Shown in pieces: positions 34,350-64,000 of a DNA stretch of 64,000 nt (position 1 is its first letter; each line of letters opens with the position of its first letter). A program made the position numbers and the translations under genes. A model generated the notes under the pieces. The model did no database searches, had not been told where the DNA came from, and worked only from the letters and a program-made list of their open reading frames with translations. Source of the stretch: Callorhinchus milii (lineage: Eukaryota); NCBI RefSeq assembly GCF_018977255.1, contig NW_024704742.1:3288001-3352000 (forward strand), given 5' to 3'.

Positions 34350-34610
34350 AGGGCGAAACCTTGGGCAAGTTTCCTTACTCCACACAGAGCCTAATAATAA
34401 TCCCTCCAAAAAACAAAAACAGTAATAAATTGGTCATTTTCAATCTACGACTGTTTGTGGGACATTGCTGTGCGCAATTGGCTGCCGCGTTCGCCCACAA
34501 ATATACAGTCAATTCACTTTACAGTGTGTTCTGTGAAGCGCTTTGGGACGTCCTCCCGACGTGAAAAGCGCTATATCAAATGCAAGGATTATTATTATTA
34601 TTATTATTAT
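34350..34610 (+). mobile_element. Young family B SINE, internally deleted and 5'-truncated (right arm of inverted pair)
   Basis: gaaaccttgggcaagtttccttactccacac joined directly to ataataatccctcc and the shared tail with (TTA)n. Confidence 0.9.
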
Positions 34611-34635
34611 CATTCCTAGACGCTTGAGAGGTTAA

Positions 34636-34857
<222 letters not shown>

Positions 34858-38548: not shown

Positions 38549-38976
38549 ACTAATAAATCTTGCATTTGGTTTAGTGCATTTCACATTGGGAGGATGTGCC
38601 AAAGCTCTTCATAGGATTTATTTGTGAAATAGAGTGTAATGGAGTATTTGTAAGTGAATTTGGCAGTCCAATCGCACACAGCGATGTCCCACAAACAGCC
38701 ATGAAGTGAATGACTAATTTTATTTGGGGGATGAGTGGCCAGGACACTGGGAAAAATTCTTTTTTATGAGCAGCACCATGGGATGTTTAACGTCCACCTG
38801 AACAGGCAGCGGAGACCTCGATTTAACGTTTCATCTGAAGGATGACACCTCTGACAACGCGACGCACCCCCATTGGAGTGTCAGCCTAAGCTATGGGAGT
38901 TCAAGTCCCGATGTGGGGCATGAACCCACGACCTTCTGACTCAGAGGCAAGAGTGAAACCAAATGAACCAAGCTGA
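38549..38976 (-). mobile_element. Full-length tRNA-derived Deu-type SINE (family A)
   Basis: The reverse complement reads tRNA head (cagcttggttcatttgg...ctctgagtcagaaggtcgtgggttca), Deu body (gttcaggtggacgttaaacatcccatgg), then tail (aaatgcaagatttatt). Confidence 0.85.
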
Positions 38977-41900: not shown

Positions 41901-42756
41901 CACCGAGATATCGTACCGCATGACTAGTCGAGATACATTCTATATCTGGAATTGGTTCACTTCACGGCTGTTCATGGGACATTGCTGTGCGCAATTTGGC
42001 TGCTGAGTTCAACTACAAAGTATACAGTCACTGCACTTTAAACCCTGTGAAGCACTTTGAGGCATTTTGGCAATGATCGGCACCAAATCTCATGGCCTTA
42101 AGTGAAAGAGAAGAGCTTGTCCTTGTTTCTTGTCCAGCAAATCACCCCACTTTACATTATATCATGCGAAGGCACTGAAGGTGCTGAGGGCTTATTATGA
42201 TTGTTATTATTGCTCACAGATTTCACCAAAATTATTATACGGTAAATAAAATTAAACATAAATAACCTCCATCGATGCTTCTAAGAGGAAAATCAATACA
42301 AACGCGAGGGAGGAGGGTATAAGCGTGATATCACGGGAGGCTAGGAAAGAGGCACGTGGGCTCGTGGAGCGTAAACACTGGCTTAGACTAGTTGGGTCTG
42401 TCTCTGCGATGTAAATTCTGTGTAAAACATGGCCCCCAAAAATTTGTGCGTGCGTTACATGGAATTTATAGCACAGAAAAAGCACAGCATCGTCAAAGTA
42501 AAACATGCACAAAAAAACATTTTTCTTGCAGTATTTCATTTAGTGCCCACCCCCCCCCCACCAAAAATACTCTTAAAGGGAAATTTAAGACGCATTGCTT
42601 AGAATTGCACCGATTCGAAGGGAAAGAGTTGTGAGCAGACTGCAAACCAGCTATGTTTCTGCGCCAGGCTGGCTCGCCAGAGCCCTTTACTGGCCAATGT
42701 GCTAACTGCACGCATTATCGTCTTATATTGTTGAGTTTCCAAACACACAACTTAAA

Positions 42757-43129
42757 ATAATAATAATCGTTACGTTTGACATAGCGCCTGATCACGTCTT
42801 CGAGACATCTGAAAGCGCTTCACGGAATACACTGCAAAATGACTTGACTGTGTATTTTGTGTGCGCGGCAGCGTCCCCGCGATCAGTTTGAGTGTGACCT
42901 AATTATTATTATTTTTTAAAAATTTATTTATTGTTTTGAAGGGATTATTGCCCTTGGAAAAGTGATCCGCCAATCGGTTAATGACTGAGTTCCTACTTAC
43001 TGCCAGGTAAACAGCGGCGCGTGTGTGGAGTAAGGCAACTTGCCCAAAGTTTCGCCCCCTGCCCGGGAATCGAACCCAGGTCCTCTCGCTCGCGAGACGA
43101 ATGCTCTAACCACTGAGCGACAGGACACC
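42757..43129 (-). mobile_element. Family B SINE, full length, intact B box
   Basis: Reverse-complement head gtcgctcagtggttagagcattcgtctcgcgagcgagaggacctgggttcgattcccggg. Confidence 0.85.
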
Positions 43130-45003
43130 AAACTGATATGCATCAGAATGTCCAACCTCCTAGAATATTCCACCTAACAACGGCTTATTTTCCTCACATT
43201 TTCCCCCGGTGAGGGACAGGTGGGTTTTGCCTAATTATCTGCTGATCGGAATTCTGAGAGGTGTTAACATAAGCGGCACATTTGTCCGAATTAACTGAAG
43301 GAAATTGCCACACGTCTTCAAACAGTCAGGGTGAAAGTGCAATTGTCAGTGTGAAAAAAATAAACCAAACACTGACCCCCATCCCCCTCCCCTCCAAAAA
43401 CCAATCTAAGTAACCTGCAATGGGCCGTGCCTTCAAGGGCTTATGGTTGTCTGATTCTTTTGAACGAGCACGAGACCGGAATCATTACGTAAATAAACAA
43501 AAGATTCGAGTGGTTTGATCAAGCCAGTAATTATTTAACTCGGTGATGCTATTACATGCCAATTAAAGAGCCGGGAACCTCAGGCCTGGGCAAGAGCGTT
43601 GTAGAGAAGGTAACTCCGTTGGGGATAATAGAGACAAACCGTCGAGAGGAGAGAGGCATGAGGCTTGCGTAAATGTCAGGCGGTTTGGAATAAACAGCAT
43701 CCAACACTGTCAACGGTAACTAACTTGAGTCAAGCTATGAGGCAATAGGATGTGTTGAGCTGCGTTGTTCACCAGGAAACTCGTAGGGAGTTCCTGGTAC
43801 CCATCATCCACCCGGTGAGGGCTCAAACGCAGGCTTGTCGGAAGCCAAAAGACCAACTAGCGACTGTCGTCCTGGAGGTGGGTGGGGGTGGTGGGTGGGG
43901 GGAGAGGTAAAGGTGGGGGGCTTCTCATTGGAGCTGAACTGTATTATTTTTATTATTTTAATATATTATTATTTTAATACGTTAAAAATCAACAGTTATT
44001 TTTAAAAAATCAATGTATTACAAATCAAAGCATAGTTAAAAGTAGGGATGGAACTAAGCGGGATATACGAAAGCAGGATGCAGTAACAAATTAAATGTGT
44101 CTTGCGGACAATAAAGAAGATGATAAAAGGTTTCAACAAACCTACTGTCCCCGATACAACTATAAGAAAATGTCTCAGAGGTGCCCTCGTGGAGGTGTAT
44201 GAAATTTTCAATGGGATTGAAAAAGTAAACCCAGAAAAATACTCTCGGATGCACCAATAACCCGCAAACAGCCAGTGAGCGAGTGACCAATTTTACCACT
44301 TGGAGGACTATAAAGAGAAGTCGCTGGGAACGCGCAGCAGATCAGGCAGCATCTATGGAGAGAGAGAAATGAGTTAGCGTTTCAGGTCGATAACCTTTCG
44401 CCTCCACAGCTGCTGCCTGACGTTGCTCTGCTGTGTGTTCCCAGCGACTTCTGTTTTTATTTCAGATTCCCGGCACTAAGCAAAACTCCCTTCTCTTTTC
44501 AAATTGTGCCAAGGAATCTTGACTCCTGAACAGTCAGACAGGGGCCTTGGTCTAAAACCTCACGCAAAGGATGAGACCTCTAACACTACCGAGTCTCCTG
44601 GGACATTACCCTGCGTGAGGGGCACTCTGTAAATGCAAGTTGTTATTGTTGTTGCTATGTTCTTGACGTACAATCACACCTTAAATCAGGGCTGACCAGA
44701 TAGTGATCAGGGGCAATAAACCAGCTGGTTATTTCCTCTCCCCAGCCTGGGAAACTGAGACTAATCGTGGCCATCATGACAGCCTGAGATCAGATAACTC
44801 AGCACTGACTTTCACTCAAACTCGGGACCTTCCCGGTGTCGACGTTTTTTTATTCCCGTTTACCCAAACCTGTTGCGCCCGAGAACGTTCGCTGGCGAGT
44901 CGAGTTGCGCCTGCGGGCGGCCGCAAACCAGCCAGTCCTTTTACGAGCAATCACAGCGGGAATCGTGTCCCTTTTCTTGTGTTTTTTTTAAAAACCGACG
45001 AAG

Positions 45004-45184
45004 GTGGAGTGGTTAAAAAATGAAGACGTGATCAACCCAATGGAGGACCGTAACTTCTACATCACCATAGACCACAACCTGATTATCAAGCAGGCTCGCC
45101 TCTCCGACACCTCCAACTACACGTGTATTGCCAAGAACATAGTGGCCAGGAGGAGAAGCACTACAGCCACTGTCATTGTGTACG
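45004..45184 (+). CDS. UNC5C: UNC5C exon 5 (181 nt), rest of Ig2
   Basis: Acceptor ccgacgaag|, donor |gtaagc, phase 0-1. Translates [60 protein letters not shown](V), matching ORF 45004..45231. Confidence 0.97.
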
Positions 45185-45242
45185 GTAAGCTGACACCTGA
45201 CTGCGCATCGGTGGGTAAACTAGCACCTTGACGCATAAGAAG

Positions 45243-45909
45243 AATAATAATCCTTGCATTGGATAAACACAGCGCCTTATCACGTCTTCGAGACATCTCA
45301 AAGCGCTCATCGCGGAACACACTGTAGAGTGAATTGACTGTATGTTCTCGTTGCAAAAAAAATTATAATCCGATGCTTTATTGTACGCCCGGGACATTTT
45401 ATCGTACAGTGACGTAGCACTTTATTACGCTGTGATGCAGGACTTTATTCTGACTGACACTTATGCTGTACGTTGATGCATTGAAATGCTTAAATCATAA
45501 TCATAATGTTGTCGCTCAATCCGCGACTGTTTTGTGGGACTCTGCTGTGCGCAATTGGCTGTATTTCTTATATTACAGTATATTCTGTGAAGTGCTTTGA
45601 GACGTCTCGGAAGACCTGGTAAGGCGCTGTATCAAATGCAAGGATTATTATTATTATAATAATTCCTTATCACATCTTCGAGACGTCCCAAAGCGCTCAA
45701 AGCAGTGACCCAATTCTTTTTTTAATTTTATTTTTGAAGGGATTATTACCCCCAGAAAAGTGATCCGCCAATCGACTAACAACCAGGTTCCTACTTACAG
45801 AGGCCTGTGGAGTGAGGAAACTCGCCTAACGTTTTGCCCTGCCCGGTAATCTAACCCAGGTCCTCTCGCTGGTGAAGAGAGCGCTTTAACCAATACACTA
45901 CAGGACTCC
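45243..45909. mobile_element. Cluster of three SINE pieces (minus 45243-45350, plus about 45505-45658, minus family B about 45656-45909)
   Basis: The shared tail consensus is read on alternating strands, with a tail-to-tail junction aggattattattattataataattccttatcac. Confidence 0.8.
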
Positions 45910-48205
45910 ATTTTCTACTCAGAAACTAACGGGCAAGAGGGAGCAAGTGCTAATAAAATAATCTGCGGCTCCAAATGAAAACAAAAACCTCTCAAGCAGT
46001 TTATGAAACTCGCTGAACTGCTCAATGAATCTTTTTTTCTTTTCTTGTACCGTAATTAATGTTTTTCCATCAACTGCTTCTCACTAAGCAGCTATGCGAT
46101 TGCCAATTTCCTTCTAACTTCACCGGGTGAAATCATTCCTTGTTACCAACTACTCTCTGTGTAATTGACTCTGAACTCCCTGTTGCTCTTCATGCAGCCA
46201 TTCTCTTGGTGTCTTATTGCCATCCAGGGAGATTGCGCCGGCAGATTGTGGCCGCACACCCAAGCAGGGATCAGATAACTATCTGGCCGAGAAATTGATT
46301 GAATTGTATGTGAAATAAAGTTGCGTAGCGTGATATAATACCTATTTAACTTCCAGGCCTGATAGATCCTCAAGGCTTTCATCGCTTTCTAGGTTTCGCC
46401 CACAAAATACACAGTGGATTCACTTTACAGTATATCCTGTGAAGCCCTTTGACACGTCTCGAGGACGTGATCAGGCGCCATAGCACATGCAAGGATTATT
46501 ATTATTATTAATATATATATATAAATAAAAAAAATTAGGAGGACAAAAGGCAGCTTGAAGCATCAAAGCCTCATCTCTCTGTGGCTTTAAGTCTCCCATC
46601 ATATCATTTAATCACATTTAACCCCAATGGTTTTTCTTATGTTACTTTGTTTGATAGATTACCTCAAACATTTATCACTATTTCATTAAAAATATCCCTT
46701 CTGGTATCCTTTCCACTCCAGATAATCAAATATGAGTCATTACGCTTGACAGCCATTCTCTGTGAAGCACTTTGAGATGTTTCAACAATTTTAGTGCTAT
46801 ATCAAATGCAAGAATTATCATTAATCACTTCCATATAGAAATTTACATTACAGACTCACTGTGTCCAATGTCTTCATTATTCTCTGGCTAATCATTCCTT
46901 TTGTCTTCATTACTCTCAAGGTAATCACTTCCATTCCATTTTCCAGTGCCTTGGGATGTCCTTCCCATGTGAAAGATTCTATATAAATGCAATTTGTTAT
47001 TTGTTGTTGTATTTTCTCTCGAGGTAATTGCTCCCATGCTTTCATTGCTCCGTACAATACAACACAAATTTATATTTATACAGTGTTATTTTACATTCGG
47101 AAGATATACGAAGCTACTTAATAATCTTGGTTTGGCACCCGAGCTGGCCGTGGGAGCCAAGGGGGCATTGAGGAGGAGAAAGCTGACCGAAAGTACAGTC
47201 AAACAGATAGTTCTTGAGGTAGATCTTGAACAAGGTGAGGAAGGGAACAAGTCCCAAGGATTCTGAGATGGAGTTCCAGAGAGCGATAACAGCCGATAAT
47301 TCCACTCACAACCATTTCACTCCCAGAAAGATAATTTACCGCAAAAAGTATCGTGGATTACGACAGGAACCATCTGGATTCTCAACCTGTTGAAAATGAT
47401 AAATTGACATCCTATCTTCCCGCACCTCATCTCTGACTGTTTATTCCACTCGTCTTTGTTTTGATTAAAAACTGACATGAATTGAATGTTTAAAAATGCT
47501 TTAAACTGCATCAGAGCACTGTCTAAAGCCGAGGCTATTACAATTCTCTTTGACTTGTGCCGTTTATTTTCTAAGTCAGCTGGTGAGTCGATCATTGTGG
47601 TGCTGTCTCAGCGTCTCTCATTTGGACCCTTGGTAAAATGATCACTCAACCCAGAATGACTTTAATGTTTGACTCATATGACAACGACGACCTGTTAAAA
47701 TGTGCAGCCGAGAACAAGAGTCCTCTCACAACTCTGCTAGTGTTCCCTGTTGGTGTGGCTGCGTATTCCCAGGCAATGAAGAAACACGTTGGTTCATCAG
47801 CCCAGGTTGACCTTGAGCTAGTGACCAACCGTCCAATTCACAGTGAATCTTAACACTGTAAAATGATCAACTTTCTTTCAAATGAATAAAACAAGTTGTG
47901 GCATGGGATTTGCTGCCGCAAGTCGATGTCCAGTACTGGTCGAAGGTTTCACGAGTCGCTGCAGAAGTGCTCTGGGATGCCACCGTGAGTGAGGGGGCTT
48001 TAGGTAAATGCAAGTTGTCGGTGCTGTTGTTGAGTCAACTGTGTGGACGCTCCTGTAAGGCAACATCGAAAGAAATTGCGACTCTGAATTGGGCTTTCAT
48101 TTGGTTCCAAATCATCCATTTCCTGAATTAATTCTGAATGTCTTATCTTCACGTTTCTCCCTCTCCCTCTCCCCCCCCCCCCCCCCCCCCACCCTCCCCA
48201 CCCAG

Positions 48206-48373
48206 TTAACGGTGGCTGGTCAACTTGGACCGAGTGGTCGGTCTGCAACAATCGCTGTGGAAGAGGCTACCAGAAACGAACACGGACTTGCACCAATCCT
48301 GCACCGCTCAATGGAGGAGCCTTTTGCGATGGTCAGAGCGTCCAGAGAATTGCCTGCACCACCATGTGTCCTG
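48206..48373 (+). CDS. UNC5C: UNC5C exon 6 (168 nt), TSP1 repeat 1
   Basis: Acceptor poly-C...cccag|, donor |gtaaat. Translates [56 protein letters not shown](V), with the WxxWxxW motif. Confidence 0.97.
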
Positions 48374-50205
48374 GTAAATGAGAAATCTCAACAGTTAGCC
48401 GGATTTAACTTGATTTATTGCAAAAATCCTTTAACCTCTTGAAGCATTCTCTCCCAGCTTCTTGACCTAAAAACTATCTTGTAGTTCAATAAACCATAGA
48501 ATAGTACACTCATTGCCACTTCATGCCTCTGCTTTGTTTTACGTGAATGGTTCATGACAATTTAATGTTATGGGATCTTTCTCTCTGAGAACTGGGCTGA
48601 TACTGTTCCCAAATCATTTTACTTTAGTCCTGACAGTCAGCAGAGTGAGAAAAGGTTTTTATCCCGACATTTTGGACTTGGGTTCCAGAGACCAAAGGAC
48701 ATTGCGTTAATCATCAGCACAGCCTCCTTGTCCACTCATCATTCATTTAGATAGTATCAACCCAGTTCCAAGCGGGCGCAGGCACTTAGCACAGAACTGC
48801 TGCCAAATCCAGCGAAACAAATAGCACCAAATATCCCCTCAAGTTCAGACAGTCCTGAGGGAAGGTTGGTGTAGCACGTGGAAATATCACATTGATTCAG
48901 TAGGTGCTCATCTTCTGAGTTTGGGGTTTGAGACACAATGCTGAGAATCAATAGAAAGGAGCAAATAGGATGAATGCAAAGGTCTGCTCAATATTTAGCA
49001 GATTGAGTGAACCAAGTGATGTAGATCGTGGACTCACACCAGTTATGGGAATGACTGCAAGCCTGGTATTAGATCTCTAGCTCGTGTGTCCACTGCTGTA
49101 GTAAGATTCGTTGTTTTTTTAAATCAAAATGCAGATAATCCTGCCAACCAGTAGTGGAAAGCAATGAGGTCAGATCAGTTGCTCCAAGGCTGGCTTTGCA
49201 GACTTCCCTATTGAGAATGGTTAGCGGCGGTGATTTTAACACACATGTCGGAGGCCCATTTGTTGTGCTAAACTTTGAACGGGCAACTAACATGACCCCA
49301 ATAGAAAACACTCCAGAAAAAATGAAATTAACAGGAATTATATGTGTTTGCCTAATAGGTAAATTTCGTAAATTGCTAAGGCTATTCGCTTCTCAAGGGG
49401 ATTAAAGGGACAAGCTCAATGGATTTGCGCTTAAATCATTTCACGTAACAAAATTATTTGCTTAATAGAAAACCCAAAGTCCTAAATAATTGAGATCTGA
49501 GGTGCAGTTAACTCTAGTGCTGAATTGTGTTTCTATCTTTTAATCGAAACTGAAACAACAACAAATTACATTTGTATAGGGTCTTTCACATCGGGAGGAA
49601 GTCCCAAGACGCTGGACAGTCAAGATTTTGGAGTTGAGATCAGTAGGGGGGGGGGGCGCAGGGGAGGCCAGGGAGGGTGGTCGTAGGAAGGTAATTGAGG
49701 ACACGGTGGAAGAGGAGTATCTTGAGATGGGTCTTGGAGGATTGGAGGAGACAAGGGAGGGGAGGAGGTCAAGGGAGCGTGCGATGGAGTTCCAAAGGGT
49801 GAGTGCAGAGAGGCTGAAGGCCCAGCTGCCAACGCAAGGCTGTGGAGGGCTATGAAAGCGAGGACGAGGATTTTGAACTCGATCTTTTCAAAGAAAGATC
49901 TGCTTCAAGGGGATGTTTCATACTTCCAGGCTTTGCTAATTTATTGGAAAAACAGGTGACCAGAGCACTTCTGGGTTGAAATTCCAGTCGGTCTTATACA
50001 GAGCTCCTTGGTGATGCCTAATTATAATGGGGGAATATCCCATTAGTGTCTGACATTGTCAAAGGAGCTATCCATTAACTCCAACTGGATTTTCTTTCCA
50101 ACGGTGCATATGGAAACATGTAGGGTGGGATGGGGAGGCATTTATGCGTCCCTGGACCACATGCTACCCTTAGTTGAGGCTACAGACATCATCACTGAAG
50201 CTCCC

Positions 50206-50408
50206 AATAATAATAATAATAATCCTTGCATTTGATATAGCGCTTTTCATGTTGGGAGGACTTCCCAAAGCGCTTCACACAACACATTATAAAGTGAATT
50301 GACTGCATATTTGTGGGTGAACGCGGCAGCCAATTGCGCTCAGCAATGTCCCACTGTCCCACAAACAGTCGTAGATTGAAAATGACCAATTTATTATTGT
50401 TTTTGGTT
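50206..50408 (-). mobile_element. Young SINE 3' fragment, same subfamily as 32587 and 34402
   Basis: Shares the diagnostic cagtcgtagattgaaaatgaccaatttattattgtttttggtt; has a 7-bp internal duplication tgtcccactgtcccac. Confidence 0.85.
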
Positions 50409-51699
50409 CAATAACACGGCTCAGTTGACAGGATTCTCACCTCAGGGTCAAAACATTATGGTAAAGCCCCATGTTGGGGCTTGAGCTTATAGAGCAGGCG
50501 ATACTGGCAGTGTGCTGCATTGTCAGAGGTGCTATCCACTAATGATGAGAGTCTCTCCCAGGATCCTAGCCATCAAATCCTCCAAATAAGTTGGCCACGT
50601 GCTGTTGTTAGATCTCGCTCTGCACGAATTGATTTGGGTACAAATGCACAGTCACTGACCTCGACACCAATTACCCGTGAAACACTTGGAGACATTTCAA
50701 CGTTATAGGCGCTATGTGGAATGCTAGGACTGTTATTAGTGAAATTCGATTGCCCTGACTGCTGGGGACAAGTTAGTTAGAGATCTGATTTCCTTGCTTC
50801 CTCGACTCCCGGCAGTGTTTCCCTACAGTGATCCTGCCGGAATCAAGAGAACTGAGGAAATCAAACGTGTGAGCCATCAATCCGTACTGTGAGCACTGCT
50901 ACACTGAGCCCTCACACAGCCTCTGGGGAAGATTCAGTCAGGTTTGGGGTCAGTGATTTGTCAGAACTAACAGCTGTCCTGGTCAAGTGCACAGAGCCCC
51001 TAGATATCAAGATATTAAGCACTTGGCTGCAAAGCCCCTGTGTTGAGTAGACGAATAACACTCACTGCGAAGGCTCATTCCTAAATAATAGATCGTTTGT
51101 TAAGGAGCCAGAGTAGAGGCCCGGTTCCCCTGGAACCGTGGCTCAGTCGAAGGAAGAAAAAGAGCTCAAAGCAGAGTTCGTGAAAGGACCAATAGAGAAA
51201 CAAAATTAAAGGAGAGAAAGTGACCGAGTTGGAAGGCTGTACTGTTTGGAATATGTTGGATTGGATGGTGCAGGTGACACTGTACCTGCTGAGTGTTGGA
51301 GATTGTAGTTTGTAACTTTGGGTTGATAGCCATTAACGTTGCTAGCTTCCCTTGAGGGTCAGGCAGAAATGTCACACCGATTCTCATCTTGGTTATTCCG
51401 CTCATGATTCACCACCTCCCTCAAGATATTAAACGAGTTGGGGATTTGTTACTGCTATTTGCTGCAAACAAAAGTGCCTTGATGATATACAATCCCGTTA
51501 GAGCGATGTCAGGAAAAGCTGGCTATTTTTAGCGATTGGAAATATGATAGATTCCTTTTTGAGTAGAGCACAGCAGGTTGTATCTGGTTTGCTGAAGGAA
51601 TGAATTTGAGGGCTGAATGGCCTTTTCTTGTCATAGTTTCTAATGTTCTTACATACAAAGCTGTTTCAAACCTAGAGGGTTCTTTAAGGTAGTATTGGG

Positions 51700-51960
51700 G
51701 AAATCATAGGAACATCATGAACGGGAACAGGAAGAGGTCATTTAATCCACTAAGTCAGTTCCATTAGTTTGTTAGGTTTTAGCAGATCTTCTAAACCTAA
51801 CGTCTCACCCTTTTACCATACCCCTTAATACCTCTGCTCTCCAAGTATCTGTCTCTCTCACTTTTACGCCTCCCTATTGGTTCCGCCTCCACAGTTTTCT
51901 GGGCCAGAGCATTCCACATCATCACAACCCTCTGTGTGAAGAGATGTTGCCTGACCTCAG
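51700..51960 (-). mobile_element. CR1 LINE 3' fragment
   Basis: cataggaac...ggaacaggaagaggtcattt and gcattccacatcatcacaaccctctgtgtgaaga. Similar minus-strand pieces lie near 10120-10400, 16400-16630, 26430-26600 and 32040-32180. Confidence 0.7.
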
Positions 51961-52954
51961 TTGTGTTTGCTTGGCTCTGCTTTTAAAAGAAATCTGCAAT
52001 CTCCCTAAACTGCGGCTGTTGCATTAATCACAACTTGAGATTTGTGACCTATTTTCATGCGACGTTGGCGGTGAAATTCGCCTTTCGGTATCCCCAAGTT
52101 GGCTTGATCCATAACAGATCCTCTGGATTCCAATGGGAATGACTGTAACAGATAGTCTTCTGTTCCGCTGCCCTCCTCTTTCTCTGCTGCTGTCAGATAT
52201 GTGCGGATAGGTGAGGGAAGAAAACAGAGCAAGGATAGAGAGAATATCTCCTTAGGATGCTATTTTAAGAAAACACAAGTTGGTATAGTTTTTACTCTCC
52301 AAAATTGGTATAGTTTTTTTAACTTTACAAAATTGGTTTGTGAATATCATAAATTAGATCTCAACTTCTGCATTGAACCTATTATGGTCCGCAAAGGCTT
52401 CAGGTCTCTTTTCTCGTTTGAATCCTGATTTACGCTGGCTCCTGAAGGCTGGCTTGTTTTCCGATGTGGAGTTTGCCCTGTTTACATTTACGCCCTCATA
52501 AAGAGTTTTTTGAGGAACACACACTCAATTAGATTTTTTTTTCGTCATGGTACTGAGTCACAGAGTCATGGCGCTAAAACTTCCCTCCCTCTCTGGAATT
52601 CAGCTGTTCCGAATTTCAGTTTTAATCAGCGCTGTAGGGATGTTTTCCGCCCACAAAATGCACAGTCAATTCACTTTAAAGTATATTCTGTGAAGAGCTT
52701 TGAGACATCTCGAAGAAGTGATAAGGCGCTGTATCAAACGCAAGGATTATTATTATTTTCGGTGCTTCTGTTGAAAAATTTACTTTTTGCGTTTTAATCC
52801 GCAGCACATTAGAATTTATTTCCAAGATTCGAGCATCATTAAATCCTAAATGCTTTATAATAATCCTAAATGCTCTTTAATCTCCATTAAAGCATAGGAA
52901 CTAAAGCTGGTATGAAAGCTTTTATCAGCAGAAAAAAAAGGGGCTTCCCTCCAG

Positions 52955-53035
52955 TGTGTGAGTGTGTGTGTGTGTGTGTGCGTGTTCGTTTGTGTGCGCG
53001 TGTGTGCGAGCGACTGTGTGTGTGCGTGTGTGTGT
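52955..53035. repeat. (TG)n/(CG)n compound microsatellite upstream of exon 7
   Basis: Direct reading: gtgtgtgagtgtgtgtgtgtgtgtgtgcgtg... Confidence 0.9.
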
Positions 53036-53132
53036 TCGTCCGTGGTGCTGGGCTCCAGGAGGCTTTACATCCGCGATTGGTGCAGCTGTTGCCTGACCTG
53101 TCTATTGATGCTGTTCTCTTGTCAAACCTTAG

Positions 53133-53297
53133 TTGATGGTGGGTGGACGGCATGGAGCAAATGGTCTACGTGTGGGACGGAATGCATGCACTGGCGGAGG
53201 AGGGAATGCACGGCTCCTGCCCCCAAAAACGGCGGGAAGGACTGCCCTGGACCCGTGTTAAACTCCAAAAACTGCACCGATGGCTTATGCATGCAAA
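53133..53297 (+). CDS. UNC5C: UNC5C exon 7 (165 nt), TSP1 repeat 2
   Basis: Acceptor tcaaaccttag|, donor |gtaagt. Translates [55 protein letters not shown]. Confidence 0.97.
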
Positions 53298-56200
53298 GTA
53301 AGTGAGGACACGGGCAAATCCGACTTGAGTTCACCAGCTAAAAACGGTTCTTCAGTGTGACCTTTTCGGTTTCTAAAGGAGGAGTAGAGCCCTGAAGGTT
53401 TTTTTTATTCCAATCTTATTTCGGTGTTATGTATTATTGCAATGAACCCTCCTGTGACTTACTGTGTATGACTATTCTGGTGAACACTAGCAGACTGTCT
53501 GTCATTTATTTACTTATTCTGAGCTGACAAGCAGTTCACATGAAGGTCTCCCAAACCTTTTTCCGGGCACTGGAAAGCATAAATATTCACACTTCGCGGA
53601 ATAAGAAAGGAAAAGCAGGCCAGTCCTGCCCCCCAGTGTGGTAGGAGACAGACTCCTGACTGATTTTTTCCCCCTTCGCCACATTAGTCAGTGAATAGAC
53701 TCAGAATGTGCCTGGCCTGCTGTTTACTGGTTTACTCAATCCCATGGGCTATTTGCAAAGTGCCCATTAGCCAAGACTGAAAGAGCAGGTCCCCTTCCTA
53801 ATTTTTTATCTGGGGAACCATACATCCCAGGGGAAAGATGGGATCTTAGGGATGGGAGAGGGAAATGTGTTTGTAGAAACGAAAGTCAATGTTTTGGGAT
53901 ATGTGCTCTGCTTGTGTGCATTTTAACGTGCATCTACTGTGAAGCAATTTTTATCGCAACAGGTGTGCGAAGGTTTTTGAGGTAGATGCTCTGGGTATGC
54001 CGGTGGGAAGTTGTGTCGGAGGAAAGGTTCAGTGTATTTGGGGGATGGATACCTCTGATTGTTTAAAGCTCCTGTTCCAGAATGACTTCCAGTCACTTCA
54101 CTCCCGAGCACCTCCTCCTACCTCTCCAACCTGCTAACACCCCGCTCTGCTACCCACCTTCTCCGCCCCACCATCGGCAGCTGTTCTTTCAGCCGCCACG
54201 TCGGGAGGACGTCCCAAGGCGCTGGACGGACAGAGTTACGGATCCGAGCTGGGGGTCGGGGTGGGGGGGGGGGGTGGGGTGTGGAGGGCGGGGGGAGGGT
54301 GGGGGGGGGGAGCAGGGAGATTGAAAGAATGGCAGCAGGTCATACAACAGAGGGGATGGGAAAACCTCAAAGCCACGCCTGATTCTGTCCCTGGCCAATG
54401 TTTAGACACCCGCACTTTCCATCAGGGGTCTCTGAATAACAGTCAGAATCAGGGACTCGAGCTGATTCAATCCCACCCCCCCACCACACACATCCCTAGG
54501 GACAAGGATTATCATCGTTGCCTCCAAATGCGTCCGACTCAGATGAGCTAACGCGACACAAACCTGTGACCATCCAATCCGTGTGGAGCAGCAAAATAAT
54601 TGCTGAATAAACTCTCCGTGCCATTCAGAAAGCCAGCCAGAGACAAGCGTTTAATCCTCAGGTTATCTCGTTTACTGCGAGTCCCTGGATTTTTATAGCT
54701 ACTAAACTGCACATTTCTGTAACCAAAATGTTGTGTGGCGGAGTTGAATTCAGTTCAAAAAAAAAAGCGAATCCTCCTTCTAAGTGCTGAGCGTTCTGAA
54801 CTTCTTTCGGCTCCTGTAAGGGGTTCAAATTGGTCCAACCTTGTCAGTTCACACGCAGCGGGAGATTGCGTTTGTGCCTCTGTGCGCGAATTGGGCGGCC
54901 GCCTTTCCCAACAAAGTGCACAGTCACTACGCTTTACAGTGAAATCCTGTGACGTCCTCCTCCTCCTCCTCCTCCTGGCGCGAAAGGCGCTGTATCAAAT
55001 GCGAGGGTTATTTTTTTGTTGAGATAGCAACCGCCTTACAAACAGCTCCAGTACTGGTATATGCCTGATGGTGGGGCTGCTAAACCGTTTGCACCCATTC
55101 CCCACTGTGATTTTAACGCCACCACCAGGAATCTAGAGGTACCGATGTCCCGAGAAAAAGTTCTCTGCTGTGAAGAGATTGAATGCTAAATAATTTTATG
55201 AAACGCAAACCTAATCAGAGATTTGAGCACATGAAATGTACTAATGAATAATGACTAAACGGATTCACCGCCCCGCTCTAGCACCTCCCTACCTCTACCC
55301 GAACTGCTTACATCTCACTTCAGGACCCACCCCCTTTACTCAGTTGTACGGCTTTCTCCACGTCTCTCGGCCCTTCTGCTCCACCATCGGTGGCTGTGCT
55401 TTCAGCCGCTACACCCAGAACTCTCTGCTTCAATCCATCCGCCTTGCCTCCTCCTTGCCTGTCTTCAGATCGTGCCATGAAAACCTTCTGCTGTGAACCT
55501 GCCCCCTCTCCCTGGCTCGGCATCAGGCCAAGCCACACATGTGTGTCACCTACACGTGGAAATTTCTCTGTGTCTGGCAAGAAATGCACACTGTCCCCCT
55601 GGAGGGATGCATTCTGTTTACCTAATTCTGGAGAGTATTAGGCGCAGATTGGTAAGAGCCAAGGCTTGGGAACCCCAGAGTGTGTGTTGGGGTACTGAGG
55701 GAGTCTAACCGGATAAAACCGCGTAGCTTGCCATTGGGAGTGCTGTCTGGCAAGCTTTCTTGCTGCTTGTCCAGCGAGGACCACCCTGTCTTTCAGAGCT
55801 TTGGTTTGCAGGGTTAACAGGAGCTGAGTGAGAAGAATCCGAGCCCCCAGCGACCAGTCTGCCCCTTTACTTCCTGCCAAGCTCAGGAACTGGAAAACCG
55901 AGAGTGCCACACAGTGGTGACTCGATTCCAATGTCACTTGGCCAAGCCTGTCATCTCGGAGCCAGTTTGGTTCCAAGGAGACCGCGATGAAGTCACCTCG
56001 TACCAGCTGCCTCATTGCTGGCGTTAGGAGAGGGTGAGAAGCAGATTAAATCCCATTCCTGCAGCCTGCCCTACAAGCTGAGCCATGTAAAACTCCATAC
56101 CATTGCAACAACAACAACATTACATTTATATTAGCGCCGTTCACGTCATCGGGCCACTCCAGACATTTTCGTTTGCGTTCTTTGAAAACAAAAGGACGAA

Positions 56201-56749
56201 ATATGTAATTTTTCCAAGGAAATCACTTTGGGACCTGTTCAGCTCCATTAAAGCCGAACTGTATTCAATTATCCTCACGTGCAGTCCTCTTGGAGTTGAA
56301 CGGGGTCCGAGAGAAAATAAATCAAGAGGATCTACGAGCAGAAGCAAACTTTCTTTGAGCTGTTTGTTTTTTTCTCACTGCTGGAGATGGCCACTGAATG
56401 TGGAACAACTCGACTGGTGTCTGTGGTACCTGTGTCTGAACAATGAGTTTCGGCAGATTTTTTGACTGTGGGGAGAAGGCCTTGGGAGGCAGTAGAAATC
56501 AGAATGCCCGATATTTATCCCACTGAGCCAATAATGCTATCATCTCAATAATCATCTCGGGGTTAGCTGAGCAGACAATGAAACCTCCACTGGCTTTGCA
56601 GGCTCCATACCCATTTCTGCTCCATACCTACCAAAGGAAGAGGATGAGAATTAAGAAGGTGTGGCTTTGGATGAGGGAGGGCAGTCGGGGTGGCTGCTCT
56701 GGAACAACAAGCGGCAAGTGCCGAGACGAGCCAAGATGTGCCCTTACCC

Positions 56750-57173
56750 ACACATTTGTCACCCCACACTCCCCCGCCTCGATTCTTCCGATGCCCTCCT
56801 CACCGGTCTCCCCAGCTCGGTCATTCATAAACCCAATTGATACAACACTCCACCGCCCAGATCTTCACCTGCACCAAACTCCACCCTGGCATCACCCCAT
56901 TTCCTTGCCAGGCTCCCTGGCTGCCACCTGCGAAACGGTTCGATTTCAGGATTGTCACGCTCATATATGTACAAATCACTTCACGCCCCTGACCGACCTG
57001 CTTACACCCCCCCACTCCACTACCTGCCGCCTGCGCTCAGCTGGCTCCGGCCTCCTACACATCCCTGCCCTCCACTCCACCGCCACCGCCTGGCTCAGTG
57101 TCGAGCTCCGCCACTCTTAAGTGTTCCCCCTGTGGAGCGCGTGGTATAAATGTAAGTAGTTGTTGTTGTTGTT
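56750..57173 (+). mobile_element. L2 LINE 3' fragment
   Basis: C-rich; ccctggctgcca...ttcgatttcaggatt (WLP..RFDFRI); ends gtataaatgtaagtagttgttgttgttgttg. Confidence 0.7.
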
Positions 57174-57380
57174 GTAGATGCACTAGTGATTGCCTCATGT
57201 TAATCGGCCAAACAGCTAGCAACACAATGTGACCTGGACCGTATGACCCAGTAAACCCCCACCTCCTGCCCCAGCACCCACGCTCGCACCATTCACGGCG
57301 ATAGGAAAAGCGGACCGTTCCCCGGGCTGCTCCCAGAGGTCGGCAATAAGCTTGAGAGCGATTGAGCGTCTGATTTCCGC

Positions 57381-57388
57381 TGACGTCA
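57381..57388. promoter_or_regulatory. Palindromic CRE motif TGACGTCA in a CpG-retaining intronic stretch
   Basis: Exact 8-mer. Function unsupported; about one such 8-mer is expected by chance in 64 kb. Confidence 0.2.
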
Positions 57389-58469
57389 ATACCAGCTGAG
57401 CTTGATCCTCACGGTATATGAAGTGATCCGGAGATCCTCAATTGAACCAGGGCTTCGTGACTCACTGCCTGACCATTTATAATTCAGCCCAGTAATAATA
57501 ATTGTAGAATTCACTGCAGCGGCGTGGAGCATGCTGCTTTGGCTACGAGCGTGACTTTAGGGAGGTTTCCCAGCGATTTATAGACTCCGGCATTTCTGTC
57601 TCGTGATCCAAACGGAATCTCATTAAACTCTGGTATCTGTCTCCCAGGTTACCTCGAAGCCCGTGGGAGGCTTTCGTTCTTGCCTTATTTTCTTCCAACA
57701 GACACGCTCAACCCGAACCAGAAGCTCTCTTCCTAATATATTTTCTTAATAGCTGCGGTCCTTTAACAGCGGCGTTGCAATTGCATCGCGTGCTTCGGAA
57801 GGAATTAAAAAAGATTAATTTTTTTTTCTCTCTCGAGTACAAATTGTCAGAAATTTCACGTAATGGATTAAACCTTGCGTTCTTTGCGAAATCCTATTAG
57901 ATAGCCATTAAACGTAAAAGGGAAGTAGTCCCACAGGAGCTATGCAAGAGGGTTCTTGTTGATGACGGGCATTTAACCTGTGCCCAGAGCCATCAGCCTT
58001 CTGCCTGCCCTCAGCACTAAGTACAGGCCAGTGTCAAGCGTGGTGATTACATTGAATCTGCCAGGATTATTCCAAAATGTACTCAGGGACGTGGAGCATA
58101 TGGTTGCATTTGGGGCCTGAAAAAGCTTCTGCGTATGATAATGTGCATCAACATTTATAGCCTCTCCATCCATTAAGGTTCTCCATAAAATGACAATGGG
58201 CCTGAGCTGTCTCCTGGTGTTGGGAGTGCGATGGTGTTGCATTTCAAGCTGTAATACAATCAGTCTGGCCATTATTTCTTAATGGAACACACTAAAATTC
58301 AATCAGCGGCCTCCGTATCTCTGCAATCTGCTGCAGCGGAGATCGGTAATCCTGCATTTGAAGCTTATTGTCGTTTCTAGTGGTGGTATTTTTTCTTCTT
58401 TGTTTATGAACCTTTTTTTTTAAACTTTTATTTCCAACCTCTTTTTCTTTTGTGTTCGTTTTCTTGAAG

Positions 58470-58526
58470 GTTTATTTTATCAAATTTCCACAGAACAGAA
58501 AGCTCGCAGCGACTTTGGATATTCCT
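58470..58526 (+). CDS. UNC5C: UNC5C alternative cassette exon (57 nt, 19 codons) between TSP1-2 and the transmembrane helix
   Basis: Long U-rich tract then ttcttgaag|, consensus donor |gtaagt, phase 1-1, no stop. Inclusion changes ...CMQ-T-APG... to ...CMQ-SLFYQISTEQKARSDFGYSS-APG..., resembling the insert I recall from the long mammalian isoform (SFIYPISTEQRTQNEYGFSS). Confidence 0.88.
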
Positions 58527-58576
58527 GTAAGTTTTGTTTTCTTCCTTTTTGTTTGGAGTTTATGTGCGGATTATAA

Positions 58577-58928
58577 TAGGGTGACCATAAGTCCTGATTC
58601 CCAGGGACAGTCTCCGGACGAGGTATTGCGTCCCTGGGACCAAATTTGCCCCGTCTTGAGTTCAGCCACAAACTGAGCGGGATCAATAAAATTCTAAAAC
58701 ACGTTCGCTCATCAGAGAAACACAGCCACACGGCCGTTAATCCCACACGCCAGCTAACCTGCGCCGAGAGCCATCAGCCTTCTGGGCAGGCAGAACGCTC
58801 ATGCCCCCGGACACAGGTTAAGTACCATTCGTCAACAAGATCCCTCTCACACCATCAGCAGTTGTGGGTGAGTTAAATTGTTTTATATACACGTCCCCGG
58901 ATTTGGTTTACAGACCATGGTCACCCTA
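58577..58928. mobile_element. Non-autonomous hAT DNA transposon (MITE, Blackjack/MER94-like ends), 352 bp
   Basis: Perfect 12-bp terminal inverted repeats TAGGGTGACCAT (58577-58588) and ATGGTCACCCTA (58917-58928). Exact 8-bp target-site duplication GATTATAA (58569-58576 and 58929-58936). Subterminal GGGAC/GTCCC motifs. Confidence 0.92.
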
Positions 58929-60742
58929 GATTATAACCCTTTCAGTTTGCCTTTATTTTTATTTTGAGTTTGGTTTCTTCGTTTCGCAATGTAAGTGCTT
59001 AGAGGACACCTCACTGCCTGCAACTAGTTGATACAGGACACACGGTAAGAGGTCTCATAAGCACTGAAGGGGTCTTACAGCCTTCTACCATGTGAAGATG
59101 TAGAACCTCTCAGCCTTCGTTCTAGCTTTCATACTAATAATTGGGGGTCACTCAATCCACGGCTGTCTGTGGGGGACGCTGCTGTGCGCAATTAGCTGCC
59201 GCGTTTCACCCACAAAATACACAGTCGATTCGCTTTACAGTAATATCCCCTGAAGCGCTTGGAGACGTCTCGAAGACGTGATAAGGCGCTGCATCAAATG
59301 CAAGGATAATTATTATTATTTTTACATTATTCTGAGGCAAACGTCTCCTTAAAGCGGAACCGCTGTCTGTCTGTTCAAACAGCGTCATGAGATCTTTAAC
59401 TCCACCTGACCCTGCAGATTGGACACAACTTTAACGTCTCGTCCTAAGGACGGCACTTCTGACGATGCAACCCTCACCCCCCCAACCCACCCCAGCACTG
59501 TGTTGGAGTATCAACCTAAGACTAATTGAGTTCAATACGGACACGGGGATTAGCGCAGTCAACACGCACTCAACTCAGCGTAGACTGGGAGTAGAACATT
59601 CCAATCTGTGAGGTCCAGGACTGCACCAGATGATGCCCCTATCAGGACGCACTCTGTACCCGATCCTTGGTTCCCATTTGAAGGATCTGTGAAGGGTTTA
59701 ACTGAGAGCTTGACGGGTGTGGAATTTTAAAATTGGTAAATTGCGCGAAAGAACGCTCACGTCGTTTAGACCGCACCAAAATCTAACCAACCCCCCCCCC
59801 AGTGCTAAACTAGCATAGCAAACGTAATGTTCTGCCGAAATGGTTTGTAAACGTTGGGTTTTGGGCCTTGTTGTCTGAGTTAGTTGAAGGACGCGACAGA
59901 GACATCAGTAAAAAGGGAATGGGAGATCATTCCTCTGTGACTGAGGAAATTGGTGCAATCCCACAGACTATTTATACGGGGAAAATATTATTCTGGGATG
60001 CTTAGGCTTGAGGTAAGAGCAACAGTGCCTATAAAACATACAGTCACCACACTTTACAGTATATCCTGTGAAGTCCTTTGAGGTGTTTTCCTGACGCAAA
60101 AGCCACTATACCAAATGCAAAGATTATTATTATTATTGTCATTGAGGCATCATCACATTTCATGCCCCAACAGATACATTTTTATGCATCAAAATTAATG
60201 GGTAATATATTCCACACTCGAAATAACTGCCTGCACTTTGTAATTAAGAAATATTGTGGTGTGATTTGATGCATCTCTTAACAAATTCTTTAACGGAACT
60301 TGTCGGTATTAATTTCCAGAGCATCTGATTTTAAACTCACCTCACGCACGTTTGGTGCTTCAGAAAATCCGATAATTGCACATTTCTTGCTGAGAAATAC
60401 AGCAAATAGGATTCCAGTGCGAGGTGGAGCGTAGGAATCTGTCGTTGATAAATGTTCGCAGTCAGGACTGAGGACACAATGGGGCCCAAGTACAGTGCAG
60501 TTCAGCTCCAGGGAAACTTTACGTCCTTCCCTTGGAGAGGAGGGAAGGAGTAGACCCACTGATATAAAAAATAAGTAAGGAATAATATTTGAACAAAGTA
60601 TAGCTGGTCCCAAGTCCAGGGTTCAACCAATTGAGCAACTGCCGCGATGCATTTCCTTCGCTCCAGTTCTCAGAAGTAGGGGTGTCCAGAGGTCCCATCG
60701 GCTTTTGTGGTTCCAATTTAGGACCCTTTCCTGTCTCCGCAG

Positions 60743-60934
60743 CTGCGCCAGGGTCAGATGACGTGGCTCTTTATGTGGGCGTGGTGGTGGCGGTGATCGT
60801 CTGCCTGGCCATCCTGATGGTCGTGGTGATGTTCGTTTACCGAAAGAACCACCGAGACTTCAATTCCGACATCCGTGACTCCGCAGCTCTCAACGGGGGC
60901 TTCCAGCCCGTGAGCATCAAGACGTCCAGGCAAG
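60743..60934 (+). CDS. UNC5C: UNC5C exon 8 (192 nt), transmembrane helix and juxtamembrane region
   Basis: Acceptor tttcctgtctccgcag|, donor |gtgggt. Translates (T)[63 protein letters not shown](D). Confidence 0.97.
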
Positions 60935-61162
60935 GTGGGTGGTTGGGTGGGTGGATTGGTTGGTTGATTGGTTGGTCGTGGTTTTATTCGTAGCGTTCGG
61001 TTTGATAAGGTGGCCTTCTGACATCTCCTTGTGTTTGAGAGAATCACACGTTACATGCTGAGCTGTGCTGCGGATGCTATCATTCTGGGGCATTGGCGTA
61101 TTTTCTCCCTTTGACGTGGATTTCCTTAAGTGCCTTAAGAAAGCATTGCTGCCAGTTCAACA

Positions 61163-61690
61163 CAACAACAAGAACAGCAAATTGAACTCATAGGGCGTCT
61201 TGCAAGTCGGGAGGATGTCCTGAGGCGCTGGACTTTCCAGGGTTTGCACCAGCCCGGGCTGGTGGTTGGATTCTGGGTGGGGAGCAAGCGGGGGTGGGAA
61301 GATGTCTGAAAGTGTGGTCAAAGGGGAAAGTCATGAGACAGACCTTGAAGGAGATGAGGGAAAGGGAGAGGCAAAGGGACTCTTAGGATTCCTAGGATGG
61401 ATTTCTAGGAAGTGGGGACAGAAGGGGCTGAAGGCCCAACTGCCAATAGTGGGGCAGGCAGGGTGTGGAGTATGAAGGTCAGAGAGGTGGGGGGGAAGAG
61501 GTCGGGGGGGGCAAGATTGTGGAGAGTGTTTAAATTGAGAATGAGGGTCTTGAACTCGATCTTCTGAGGCATAGGGAGCCAGTTGAGCCGGACAACGATG
61601 GGGTAGATTGGCGGGCAATATTGCAGAGTTGTGGGAGAAGCTGGATGGGTCAAGGCATGGACGTGGGGTTTAAAGGACAGTTGAGAACAG
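61163..61690 (-). mobile_element. L2 LINE 3' fragment (ORF2 C-terminus, 3' UTR, (GTT)n tail)
   Basis: The minus frame contains LNWLPMPQKIEFKTLILNLNTLHNLAPPDL, matching the L2 motif LHWLP..RI.FK......LH.LAP.YL. Confidence 0.85.
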
Positions 61691-62649
61691 AACAAGACAC
61701 TGGTTTTGTGAAGGGGAATGCACTTCCATGTAGATTGATGCTGTCAAGCCAAGTAGGAGAGGCCTCTGTCTTGTCAACATTCAACTGGAGAACGCTAGCT
61801 CTCATCCAGGACTTGGTGACCGATCGGCAATCCGTCAGGACAGCGGCGGTCCTGGAATCGAGGGAGGCAACAGGACAACTGTGGAGCAAAGTTCCATTTG
61901 GGTCTCGATTTACTCTGTTTATGTGACATTTTAACCTGAAGAATGTGGCAAGTAAGTTGAATTCAGTCTGAACGTTGATGCTGGTTTTCTGTATAGTTTT
62001 TAAAGAAACCAGCAGAAGATTAGCTTCAAAACTGAGGCTGTGTTTAACAATTTGATAAATTCTGGAAGACCTAACATGCCACATTAGAATTGACCCAGGA
62101 GGAATTCCTACCAATTGGAGCCCAATATTTACAGTGTGGAATTAGTAACAAATGGAAAACTGCGTTCACGTGAAGGAGAGATCCCTGGCTACACGTGATA
62201 GGATCGAGACGTTTAAAATATTAAAGGGGATTCACAATCAAAAAAAGGCAGAAAAAAAAGGGCTCTTCGCTCCAGTAGGGGAATTAAGAACATGGAAACA
62301 TAAGGTTAACATGAACAACAATTTGCATTTACTTAGCGGCCTTCACACGAGCTCACGTCTCAGAGCGCTCGAACGAAAGGGAAGACGGTTAGAAAGAAAG
62401 CCAGAGAAACAATACACACAGAATCAATGTCAGTTCTTGGGTTGATCGACAGACACTCTTGAAGGCAGGGAATTAGGGGCAACGGAGAAAAGGCAGGAAA
62501 CGGGATTAGAGCCAAAAAGAGCTACGATCTAATAAAAGGGTGGGACAGGCACAAAGGGATAAATGCTCTTTTCCCACAAGCGCAGTAAGTGCCGCTTGAG
62601 TGGAGAAGGCCTCTTTATAAAATGATGGTCTTATTGTTTCTCCGTCCAG

Positions 62650-63003
62650 ATAACTCTCACCTGCTCGGAGTCCAGCCTGACCTCACAGCTGCTGCCGCCT
62701 TGTACCGGGGTCCGGTCTACGCATTGCACGACATCGCAGACAAGATCCCGATGACCAACTCGCCGCTGCTCGACCCGCTGCCCAACCTTAAGATAAAGGT
62801 CTACAATTCTTCCTGCGGCATCACGCCGCAAGAGGAGACGGTGGACCTGGCGGCCAAACTCTCCCCACGCAACACCGAGTCGCTGCTCGACAGTGAGACC
62901 CAGAACCTCAAGAACCAAAGAGTGGTCGAGCAGAAGGACCCAACCTGCAGTGCGTTCGGGAGTTTCAACATCCTGGGCGGCCATCTTATAGTGCCCAACT
63001 CTG
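62650..63003 (+). CDS. UNC5C: UNC5C exon 9 (354 nt), cytoplasmic linker and start of ZU5
   Basis: Acceptor gtttctccgtccag|, donor |gtaaat. Translates [55 protein letters not shown]...[17 protein letters not shown](G). Confidence 0.96.
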
Positions 63004-63727
63004 GTAAATCTCCCTGTGGTTTTATAAATCTAGGTAAATCTACCTACCCGTGATCGTACAGCTCCGGTAAATTGGTTCCACTCTACCGCAACTCGATTGC
63101 CGTGATAAAGCACCAGACAATCGGCACACGGATAGCATTTATCCCACAAACAGCCACACAGCGAGTGACCTAGCTTTATCTGGGAGATCGGTTGGCCAAG
63201 ACACCGGGAGAAACTCCCTTCTCTTCTAGAAACACGCAGACTGGATCTCAGCTTAACGTCTTATCTCCGACGAATACAGCACGTACGGCAATGCAACCCA
63301 ACTGTGTTGGAGTCTCAGGCTAGGCTTTTGTATCATTGCACCATGCAACAGGGTTAGGGTTAGGGTTGGGATTTAGGCACCGCTGTCAGTTCAAGATAGT
63401 GGGATCGTACGTACGTATTGTATTTCTTCACAAAAAATATTCCCCCGCGTAGAAATTCAAGGATAATAATAATAATAATAATAATAATCCTTGCATTTAT
63501 ATAGTGCTTTTCACGTCTTCTAGATTTACACATTTACTATTAAATAATCTGTTAAGAAATACAATAAATAAGATCAAAATTCCCCCCCACACCCCCCCCC
63601 CCCCCAACCCCTTCCCTTTGCCCATCCCTGGTTGATGATCACATGGTTGATATCCGGTGCCGATGTCAGCCTCAGCTCCTTCGCTACGCTGGATTTGCTT
63701 AGAACGTTCTTCTGTGATTGTTCCTAG

Positions 63728-63815
63728 GAATAAGCTTACTGGTGCCAGCAGGAGCCATTCCCCAGGGCAGAGTGTACGAGATGTATCTGACTGTACATCG
63801 GAAGGAGAACCTGAG
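63728..63815 (+). CDS. UNC5C: UNC5C exon 10 (88 nt), ZU5 domain
   Basis: Acceptor attgttcctag|, donor |gtaacg. Translates [29 protein letters not shown](R). Confidence 0.96.
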
Positions 63816-64000
63816 GTAACGGCGCTCGTTTATCCGGAGGCGTTTTACAAATTTACCTGTCCGTGTTCGAGATGTTTGTGTGTGCGTGTGCGTGCGCGCG
63901 TGCGCTGGTGCCTGTGTCTGTTGGTTGCAGTGCCTACCCTATTCAAGATTTGTCAAGAAATGCAAATGCATCTTTTTCACTGTGTTGCGTGTTGTAAGGG

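What the first reader, a model, noticed from the sequence alone, without database searches (positions are those of the whole stretch)
58381..58560. Hidden 57-nt UNC5C cassette exon, apparently conserved from cartilaginous fish to mammals
Seen: a frame-preserving phase 1-1 exon (58470-58526) with a perfect GTAAGT donor, an AG-free U-rich upstream tract of about 87 nt (58381-58467) and a U-rich downstream flank. It encodes SLFYQISTEQKARSDFGYS. The ORF track misses it because it reports another frame. Knowledge (recalled): the long mammalian UNC5C isoform has a 19-aa insert of similar sequence here, and UNC5B has a regulated small exon at the equivalent position that modulates netrin dependence. 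Inference: alternative splicing of the stalk between TSP1-2 and the membrane dates to the jawed-vertebrate ancestor.
Basis: partly seen in the sequence, partly recalled or inferred. Interest (0 to 1): 0.72.

Follow-up and report, generated by a model that had tools for sequence, protein, structure and literature searches.

The report
Known optional UNC5C stalk exon
This is a real, already annotated 57-base optional exon of the elephant shark netrin receptor gene UNC5C that lengthens the stalk just outside the membrane; sharks, rays, birds and mammals share it, but what it does in UNC5C appears untested.

Summary
The exon is real: 58470-58526, 57 nt, AG/GTAAGT, phase 1-1, between the second TSP1 exon and the transmembrane exon. 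The gene is Callorhinchus milii UNC5C. The exon is not hidden: RefSeq isoform X1 (942 aa) contains the inclusion form exactly and X2 (923 aa) the skip form. Both forms are annotated in 15 of the 23 cartilaginous-fish species seen, and in several mammals and a duck. The mammalian insert has the same length and matches at 8 of 18 residues. The mouse 57-nt insertion was cloned from retinal cDNA (PMC4737655) and is listed as a human/mouse skipped exon (PMC12480741). An origin no later than the jawed-vertebrate ancestor follows by parsimony. Junction reads in this species could not be shown. Best mechanism, inferred from UNC5B: a stalk-length switch (10 versus 29 residues) that controls ectodomain shedding and coupling to netrin. 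No test of this in UNC5C turned up in my searches. Open point: UNC5B and UNC5D carry 33-nt cassettes at the same place, so the switch may predate the vertebrate genome duplications. The scan's earlier notes had nothing on this exon.

The parts
58470..58526 (+). 57-nt cassette exon (exon 8 of the long isoform), phase 1-1, adds 19 residues to the extracellular stalk
   Evidence: inclusion translation matches RefSeq XP_007900713.1 exactly; tblastn of a sawshark long isoform hits 58463-58525, E 1e-4
58381..58469 (+). AG-free, U-rich polypyrimidine tract and AAG acceptor; six YTCTY words and one YCAY in the 250 nt upstream
58527..58562 (+). GTAAGT donor followed by a U-rich flank (67% T over 58533-58562)
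53133..53297 (+). Upstream exon, 165 nt, second TSP1 repeat; itself skipped in many annotated isoforms of other species
60743..60934 (+). Downstream exon, 192 nt, end of stalk plus transmembrane helix (human and mouse TM exons are also 192 nt)
48206..48373 (+). First TSP1 exon, 168 nt, same phase; donor partner when the second TSP1 exon is skipped
19051..63816 (+). Approximate span of the UNC5C coding exons matched in the window (residues 31-589 of the 942-aa isoform)

Best explanation
This is the elephant shark orthologue of mammalian UNC5C exon 8, a frame-preserving cassette present in both states since the last common ancestor of jawed vertebrates. Shown here: exon anatomy, orthology, and annotation of both forms. 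Inferred from UNC5B: inclusion lengthens the unstructured stalk between the last TSP1 cysteine and the membrane from about 10 to about 29 residues. That opens a juxtamembrane site to sheddases (ADAM or BACE type, then gamma-secretase) and/or loosens mechanical coupling between the netrin-bound ectodomain and the ZU5-UPA-death-domain module, without changing ligand binding. The identity is about 95% likely; the functional step about 50%.
For: Exact match to RefSeq X1/X2. UNC5C clade at 99% SH-aLRT in a quick tree. Both forms annotated in 15 of 23 chondrichthyan species. A 3,217-nt Logan contig encodes the whole 921-aa skip form in the skate cluster, so it must be a spliced transcript (P0164). 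8 of 18 identities to the mammal/bird insert, with 0 of 20,000 shuffles reaching the score. Mouse cDNA with the 57-nt insertion. UNC5B long form is shed and the short form is not, cut 16 residues from the membrane (PMC12480741); the same distance falls inside this insert in the long form and inside TSP1 in the short form (inference). UNC5B skip form binds netrin normally but ignores it (PMC8358048). UNC5C is listed as a candidate BACE1 substrate, isoform unstated (PMC2793532). AlphaFold gives coil with pLDDT under 50 for the insert.
Against: No functional test of the UNC5C cassette appeared in my searches; a 2024 preprint says UNC5C shedding is not known. The Swiss-Prot canonical human and mouse UNC5C has its TM at 381-401, i.e. 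the short form, and UNC5C is generally treated as netrin-responsive (recalled), which argues against simply copying the UNC5B ligand-insensitivity model. The insert is more conserved than a plain spacer needs (14-17 of 18 identical among sharks and rays). Stalk length did not alter shedding for AXL in the same study. The upstream NOVA-type YCAY cluster of UNC5B is absent here. Low pLDDT also covers part of the folded TSP1 domain (337-350), so it is weak evidence of disorder.
Confidence: 0.55

Rival explanations
1. The insert is a sequence-specific binding or modification site (co-receptor contact in cis, O-glycosylation, or tyrosine sulfation near the acidic residues), not mainly a spacer.
For: Length fixed at 19 residues from chimaera to mammals, with a conserved aromatic start, central Glu and a late Gly; near-invariance across mammals, birds and a turtle; 7 Ser/Thr in the 29-residue long stalk.
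Against: Teleost versions diverge (7 and 10 of 18 identical); the late Tyr is His in two sharks; conservation could instead reflect exonic splicing elements. No partner is known from the papers read.
Confidence: 0.25
2. The exon is real and old, but the two isoforms are nearly equivalent; the exon persists as a remnant of the ancestral long stalk and its sequence is held by splicing constraints.
For: Invertebrate UNC5 stalks are long and vary freely; ray-finned fish UNC5A has only the short stalk in 110 of 119 hits and in all RefSeq-named members listed, so a paralogue does without it.
Against: Both states appear to be kept in lineages separated by over 400 million years (divergence time recalled); the equivalent UNC5B event has measured effects.
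Confidence: 0.15
3. In elephant shark the exon is an annotation projection or is constitutive, so alternative splicing is not really shared with mammals.
For: Most evidence is predicted (XP_) models; several UniProt models of this gene carry other, mutually inconsistent stalk peptides, showing that annotation here can be wrong.
Against: Intact splice sites and frame; the same paired isoforms in 15 separately annotated species; a transcript-like contig of the skip form in a skate.
Confidence: 0.05

Closest known systems
Human/mouse UNC5C exon 8 (57 nt; mouse NM_001293561 / cDNA Unc5c.y; human XM_005263321)
   Same: Same gene, position, length (57 nt), flanking TM exon length (192 nt), 19-residue gain; 8 of 18 residues identical; listed as skipped exon in both species.
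   Different: Only sequence divergence; the mouse inclusion form has cloned-cDNA support that I could not match with reads for elephant shark.
RefSeq C. milii UNC5C isoforms X1 (XP_007900713.1) and X2 (XP_007900714.1)
   Same: Identical to the inclusion and skip translations of the window over the three exons.
   Different: None; this is the same object.
UNC5B exon 8 (33 nt, NOVA2-repressed; PMC8358048, PMC12480741) and UNC5D exon 8 (33 nt)
   Same: Frame-preserving skipped exon between the last TSP1 exon and the TM exon; UNC5B also has both forms annotated in a sawfish and a zebra shark cluster.
   Different: 11 versus 19 residues; only weak sequence similarity (p 0.022 global, 0.12 local); no upstream YCAY cluster here; function tested for UNC5B only.
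Juxtamembrane skipped exons that set shedding (CADM1, ALCAM; screen in PMC12480741)
   Same: Small exon directly upstream of the TM exon of a type I protein; UNC5C is one of the screen's human/mouse candidates.
   Different: UNC5C was not tested in that study (over its 40-nt cut-off); AXL shows that such exons need not change shedding.

Membership tests
UNC5C (vertebrate netrin receptor paralogue C) | Ig-Ig-TSP1-TSP1-TM-ZU5-UPA-death domain architecture | tested here: met
   Pfam domains listed for the 100%-identical hit; exons for residues 31-589 map to the window; the rest lies outside it
UNC5C (vertebrate netrin receptor paralogue C) | Groups with bony-vertebrate UNC5C rather than A, B or D | tested here: met
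   99% SH-aLRT, quick IQ-TREE on 23 rows; no chondrichthyan A or D and no cyclostome included
UNC5C (vertebrate netrin receptor paralogue C) | Conserved synteny | not testable with these tools
   No genome is held for this window
UNC5C exon 8 cassette | 57 nt, phase 1-1, between TSP1-2 and TM exons, homologous peptide | tested here: met
UNC5C exon 8 cassette | Both inclusion and skipping annotated in this species | tested here: met
   RefSeq X1 and X2
UNC5C exon 8 cassette | Both junction types seen in RNA reads of this species | tested here: inconclusive
   Four contig runs laid; the joints shown are all repeat-derived
UNC5B-type NOVA2-repressed stalk exon | YCAY cluster (more than 3 in 45 nt) upstream of the exon | tested here: not met
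   One YCAY in 250 nt upstream; six scattered downstream, at most three within 45 nt (definition)
UNC5B-type NOVA2-repressed stalk exon | Common descent of the B and C cassettes (sequence homology) | tested here: inconclusive
   Profile match p 0.022 (global), 0.12 (local)
UNC5B-type NOVA2-repressed stalk exon | Skipping removes netrin rescue and shedding | not testable with these tools
   Needs cell assays
Neural microexons (SRRM3/4 type) | Length up to 27 nt (some use 51) and UGC motif close upstream of the acceptor (definition recalled) | tested here: not met
   57 nt; nearest upstream TGC is at 58353, over 110 nt away

The most novel reading that the evidence does not exclude
One optional stalk exon already existed in the single UNC5 gene before the vertebrate genome duplications. 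It survives as the 57-nt exon of UNC5C and the 33-nt exons of UNC5B and UNC5D and was lost from UNC5A. The long stalk would be ancestral (invertebrate stalks are long) and skipping the vertebrate innovation, giving three netrin receptors a shared, splicing-set switch for shedding and ligand dependence, with different regulators per paralogue. The tree ((A,C),(B,D)) needs one loss under this reading against two gains at the same intron otherwise.
Probability: 0.4. Interest if true: 0.4.

Novelty: already known. Interest (0 to 1): 0.13.

Why it matters
As a discovery it matters little: the exon is annotated in this genome and cloned in mouse. Its use is as a pointer. A cassette kept in both states from chimaeras to mammals, in a receptor tied to axon guidance and cell death, has no functional test that I could find, while the matching UNC5B exon changes shedding and netrin dependence. 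Experiments on UNC5C that use only the canonical short form may miss isoform-specific behaviour.

Tried and rejected
RNA evidence: no RNA holder listed for 53100-61000. Four of the 12 listed runs were laid (X1, X6, X8, X9; all contigs, RNA status guessed). High-copy intronic repeats dominated; 15 of 102 joints were shown and none was at 53297, 58470, 58526 or 60743; the TM exon had almost no cover (human-like contigs are filtered by the tool). One X1 contig starts 30 nt before the donor at 53297 and one X8 contig enters the exon at 53132 with 29 letters from elsewhere, both compatible with splicing but not informative on the cassette. No verdict either way. Whole-genome and synteny check: no genome held. 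UNC5A cassette: 8 of 119 hits had longer stalks, all different from each other and from UniRef-only models, and RefSeq-named members lack them; one that resembled the UNC5C insert (P0517) begins with what looks like donor read-through and was rejected. The query lacked an insert, which biases this search, and it reached only ray-finned fish. Invertebrate isoform sets (starfish, snail, horseshoe crab) showed no stalk-length isoforms in 12 proteins. No lamprey or hagfish sequence was identified among the 20 proteins named from later look-ups, so the cassette could not be dated further back. AG-free zone as a distinguishing signal: rejected. NOVA and SRRM4-type regulation: motifs not met. In the B-versus-C profile test one of 31 'B' rows was a mis-captured UNC5C model and was left in. 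Literature searches with no study of this exon's function; subscription papers are mostly outside the library. Earlier scan notes: none on this exon.

Full report
Observation. Positions 58470-58526 form a 57-nt exon with AG at 58468-58469 and GTAAGT after it. Joined to the upstream exon (53133-53297) and the transmembrane exon (from 60743) it keeps the frame and adds 19 residues. The tract 58381-58467 has no AG and is 61% T; the flank 58533-58562 is 67% T. These signals do not single the exon out: at least 20 longer AG-free gaps occur in the window, two other exons of the gene have longer ones, and a simple splice-site filter gives 6 candidates in the window.

Identity. The TM exon's translation is 100% identical to a Callorhinchus milii UNC5 protein. 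A quick maximum-likelihood tree of 23 proteins places it with bony-vertebrate UNC5C at 99% SH-aLRT, with topology ((A,C),(B,D)) at 89 and 95; the careful search did not finish, and no cyclostome or chondrichthyan A/D row was included. Of the 11 C. milii proteins in that cluster, 2 contain the inclusion translation exactly (RefSeq XP_007900713.1 isoform X1, 942 aa, and one UniProt model), 3 contain the skip translation exactly (including XP_007900714.1 isoform X2, 923 aa), and 6 match neither. So the exon is annotated, not hidden.

Conservation. Counting by eye over cartilaginous-fish species appear: 15 have both forms annotated, 7 only the inclusion form and 1 only the skip form among the records listed. 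A 3,217-nt Logan contig in the skate cluster encodes the entire 921-aa skip form, which implies a spliced transcript. Among the 120 listed hits, a pattern count gave 58 inclusion, 38 skip and 24 other (fragments, odd models, two catshark rows the pattern missed, and a 20-residue coelacanth variant). Paired forms occur in blue whale, horses, a cat, a bat and duck; inclusion forms in human, a turtle and two teleosts. The window's 18 exon-internal residues, LFYQISTEQKARSDFGYS, match the mammal/bird version FIYPISTEQRTQNEYGFS at 8 of 18 positions without gaps; 0 of 20,000 shuffles reached the score. Presence of both states in chondrichthyans and osteichthyans puts the cassette in their common ancestor by parsimony. 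This rests mostly on predicted gene models, which are usually RNA-supported (my knowledge of the RefSeq pipeline) but were not checked read by read. My own RNA check was inconclusive.

What is in print. [quoted passage not shown] PMC12480741 (parts 1-3 of 5 and Table S1 rows read) lists the 57-nt UNC5C skipped exon in human and mouse, and 33-nt skipped exons at the same place in UNC5B and UNC5D, none for UNC5A; it tested only UNC5B and AXL. Long UNC5B was shed, cut 16 residues from the membrane; short UNC5B was not; AXL isoforms did not differ. PMC8358048 (section 9 and passages read) shows NOVA2-driven skipping of UNC5B exon 8 in human, mouse and zebrafish; the skip form binds netrin-1 and dimerises but no longer responds to it, and the paper does not mention UNC5C. 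PMC2793532 (one table passage) lists UNC5C as a candidate BACE1 substrate. A bioRxiv preprint (10.1101/2024.05.08.593135, passages) states that UNC5C shedding is not known. PMC10084454 (passages) gives four gnathostome paralogues and three lamprey genes. PMC4734150 and PMC8906809 (passages) had nothing on this exon. Six searches found no functional study of the UNC5C cassette; most subscription journals are outside the library.

How it most likely works. Shown: inclusion lengthens the stretch between the last TSP1 cysteine and the membrane helix from 10 to 29 residues; long mouse UNC5B has 21. AlphaFold models the insert as low-confidence coil, but part of the neighbouring TSP1 domain is also low, so this is weak. 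Inferred: the distance at which UNC5B is cut falls inside the insert in long UNC5C and inside the TSP1 domain in short UNC5C, so the exon probably gates shedding and/or the mechanical link between ligand binding and the ZU5-UPA-death-domain module. Against a direct copy of the UNC5B model: the Swiss-Prot canonical UNC5C is the short form (TM 381-401) and is generally regarded as netrin-responsive (recalled); the insert is more conserved than a spacer needs; and the upstream YCAY cluster is absent (1 in 250 nt). The U-rich flanks with six YTCTY words fit PTB-, TIA1- or ELAVL-type control better, which is a guess from motifs.

Relation to the paralogues. UNC5B has both forms annotated in a sawfish and a zebra shark cluster too, so that cassette is equally old. 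Profiles of 16 C inserts and 31 B inserts (one B row mis-captured) align best with the central Glu-Gln/Pro-Lys in register, but weakly: p 0.022 end to end, 0.12 local. Ray-finned fish UNC5A shows the short stalk in 110 of 119 hits. Invertebrate stalks are mostly long and showed no stalk isoforms in 12 proteins. A single pre-duplication cassette lost in UNC5A is the simplest reading of the tree but is not established; cyclostome data are missing.

Verdict. Interest 0.13. The remaining value is the untested function and the possible shared origin of the B, C and D stalk cassettes.

Noticed in passing
window 48206-48373 and 53133-53297: The two TSP1 exons and the cassette are all same-phase modules; annotated shark, ray and mammal isoforms skip the second TSP1 exon or both, with or without the cassette, giving a combinatorial ectodomain.
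   Followed up: partly
window 58494-58526: An internal AG could give a 33-nt in-frame version of the exon, the same length as the UNC5B/D cassettes; no annotated shark protein listed showed it.
   Followed up: partly
window 60685-60742: Several UniProt models of C. milii UNC5C (P0001, P0123, P0127) take stalk residues from intron sequence just upstream of the TM-exon acceptor; they disagree with each other and look like model artefacts.
   Followed up: yes
P0567, P0610 (gar UNC5A models): Two gar UNC5A models share a short stalk piece resembling the UNC5B cassette, absent from RefSeq gar X1; could be a relic exon or a projection artefact.
   Followed up: partly
P0188 (Saccoglossus UNC5): The hemichordate stalk contains a five-residue word like the core of the UNC5B cassette at a similar distance from the membrane; untested.
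   Followed up: no
window about 54190-54320, 55470-56130, 59140-59320, 60040-60140: High-copy interspersed repeats in the introns around the cassette, with very high contig depth in all four runs laid; not classified.
   Followed up: no
window 58946-58990: A second exon-like candidate (45 nt, GTAAGT donor, open frame) lies 420 nt downstream of the cassette, at the edge of repeat sequence; no annotated protein showed it, probably chance.
   Followed up: no
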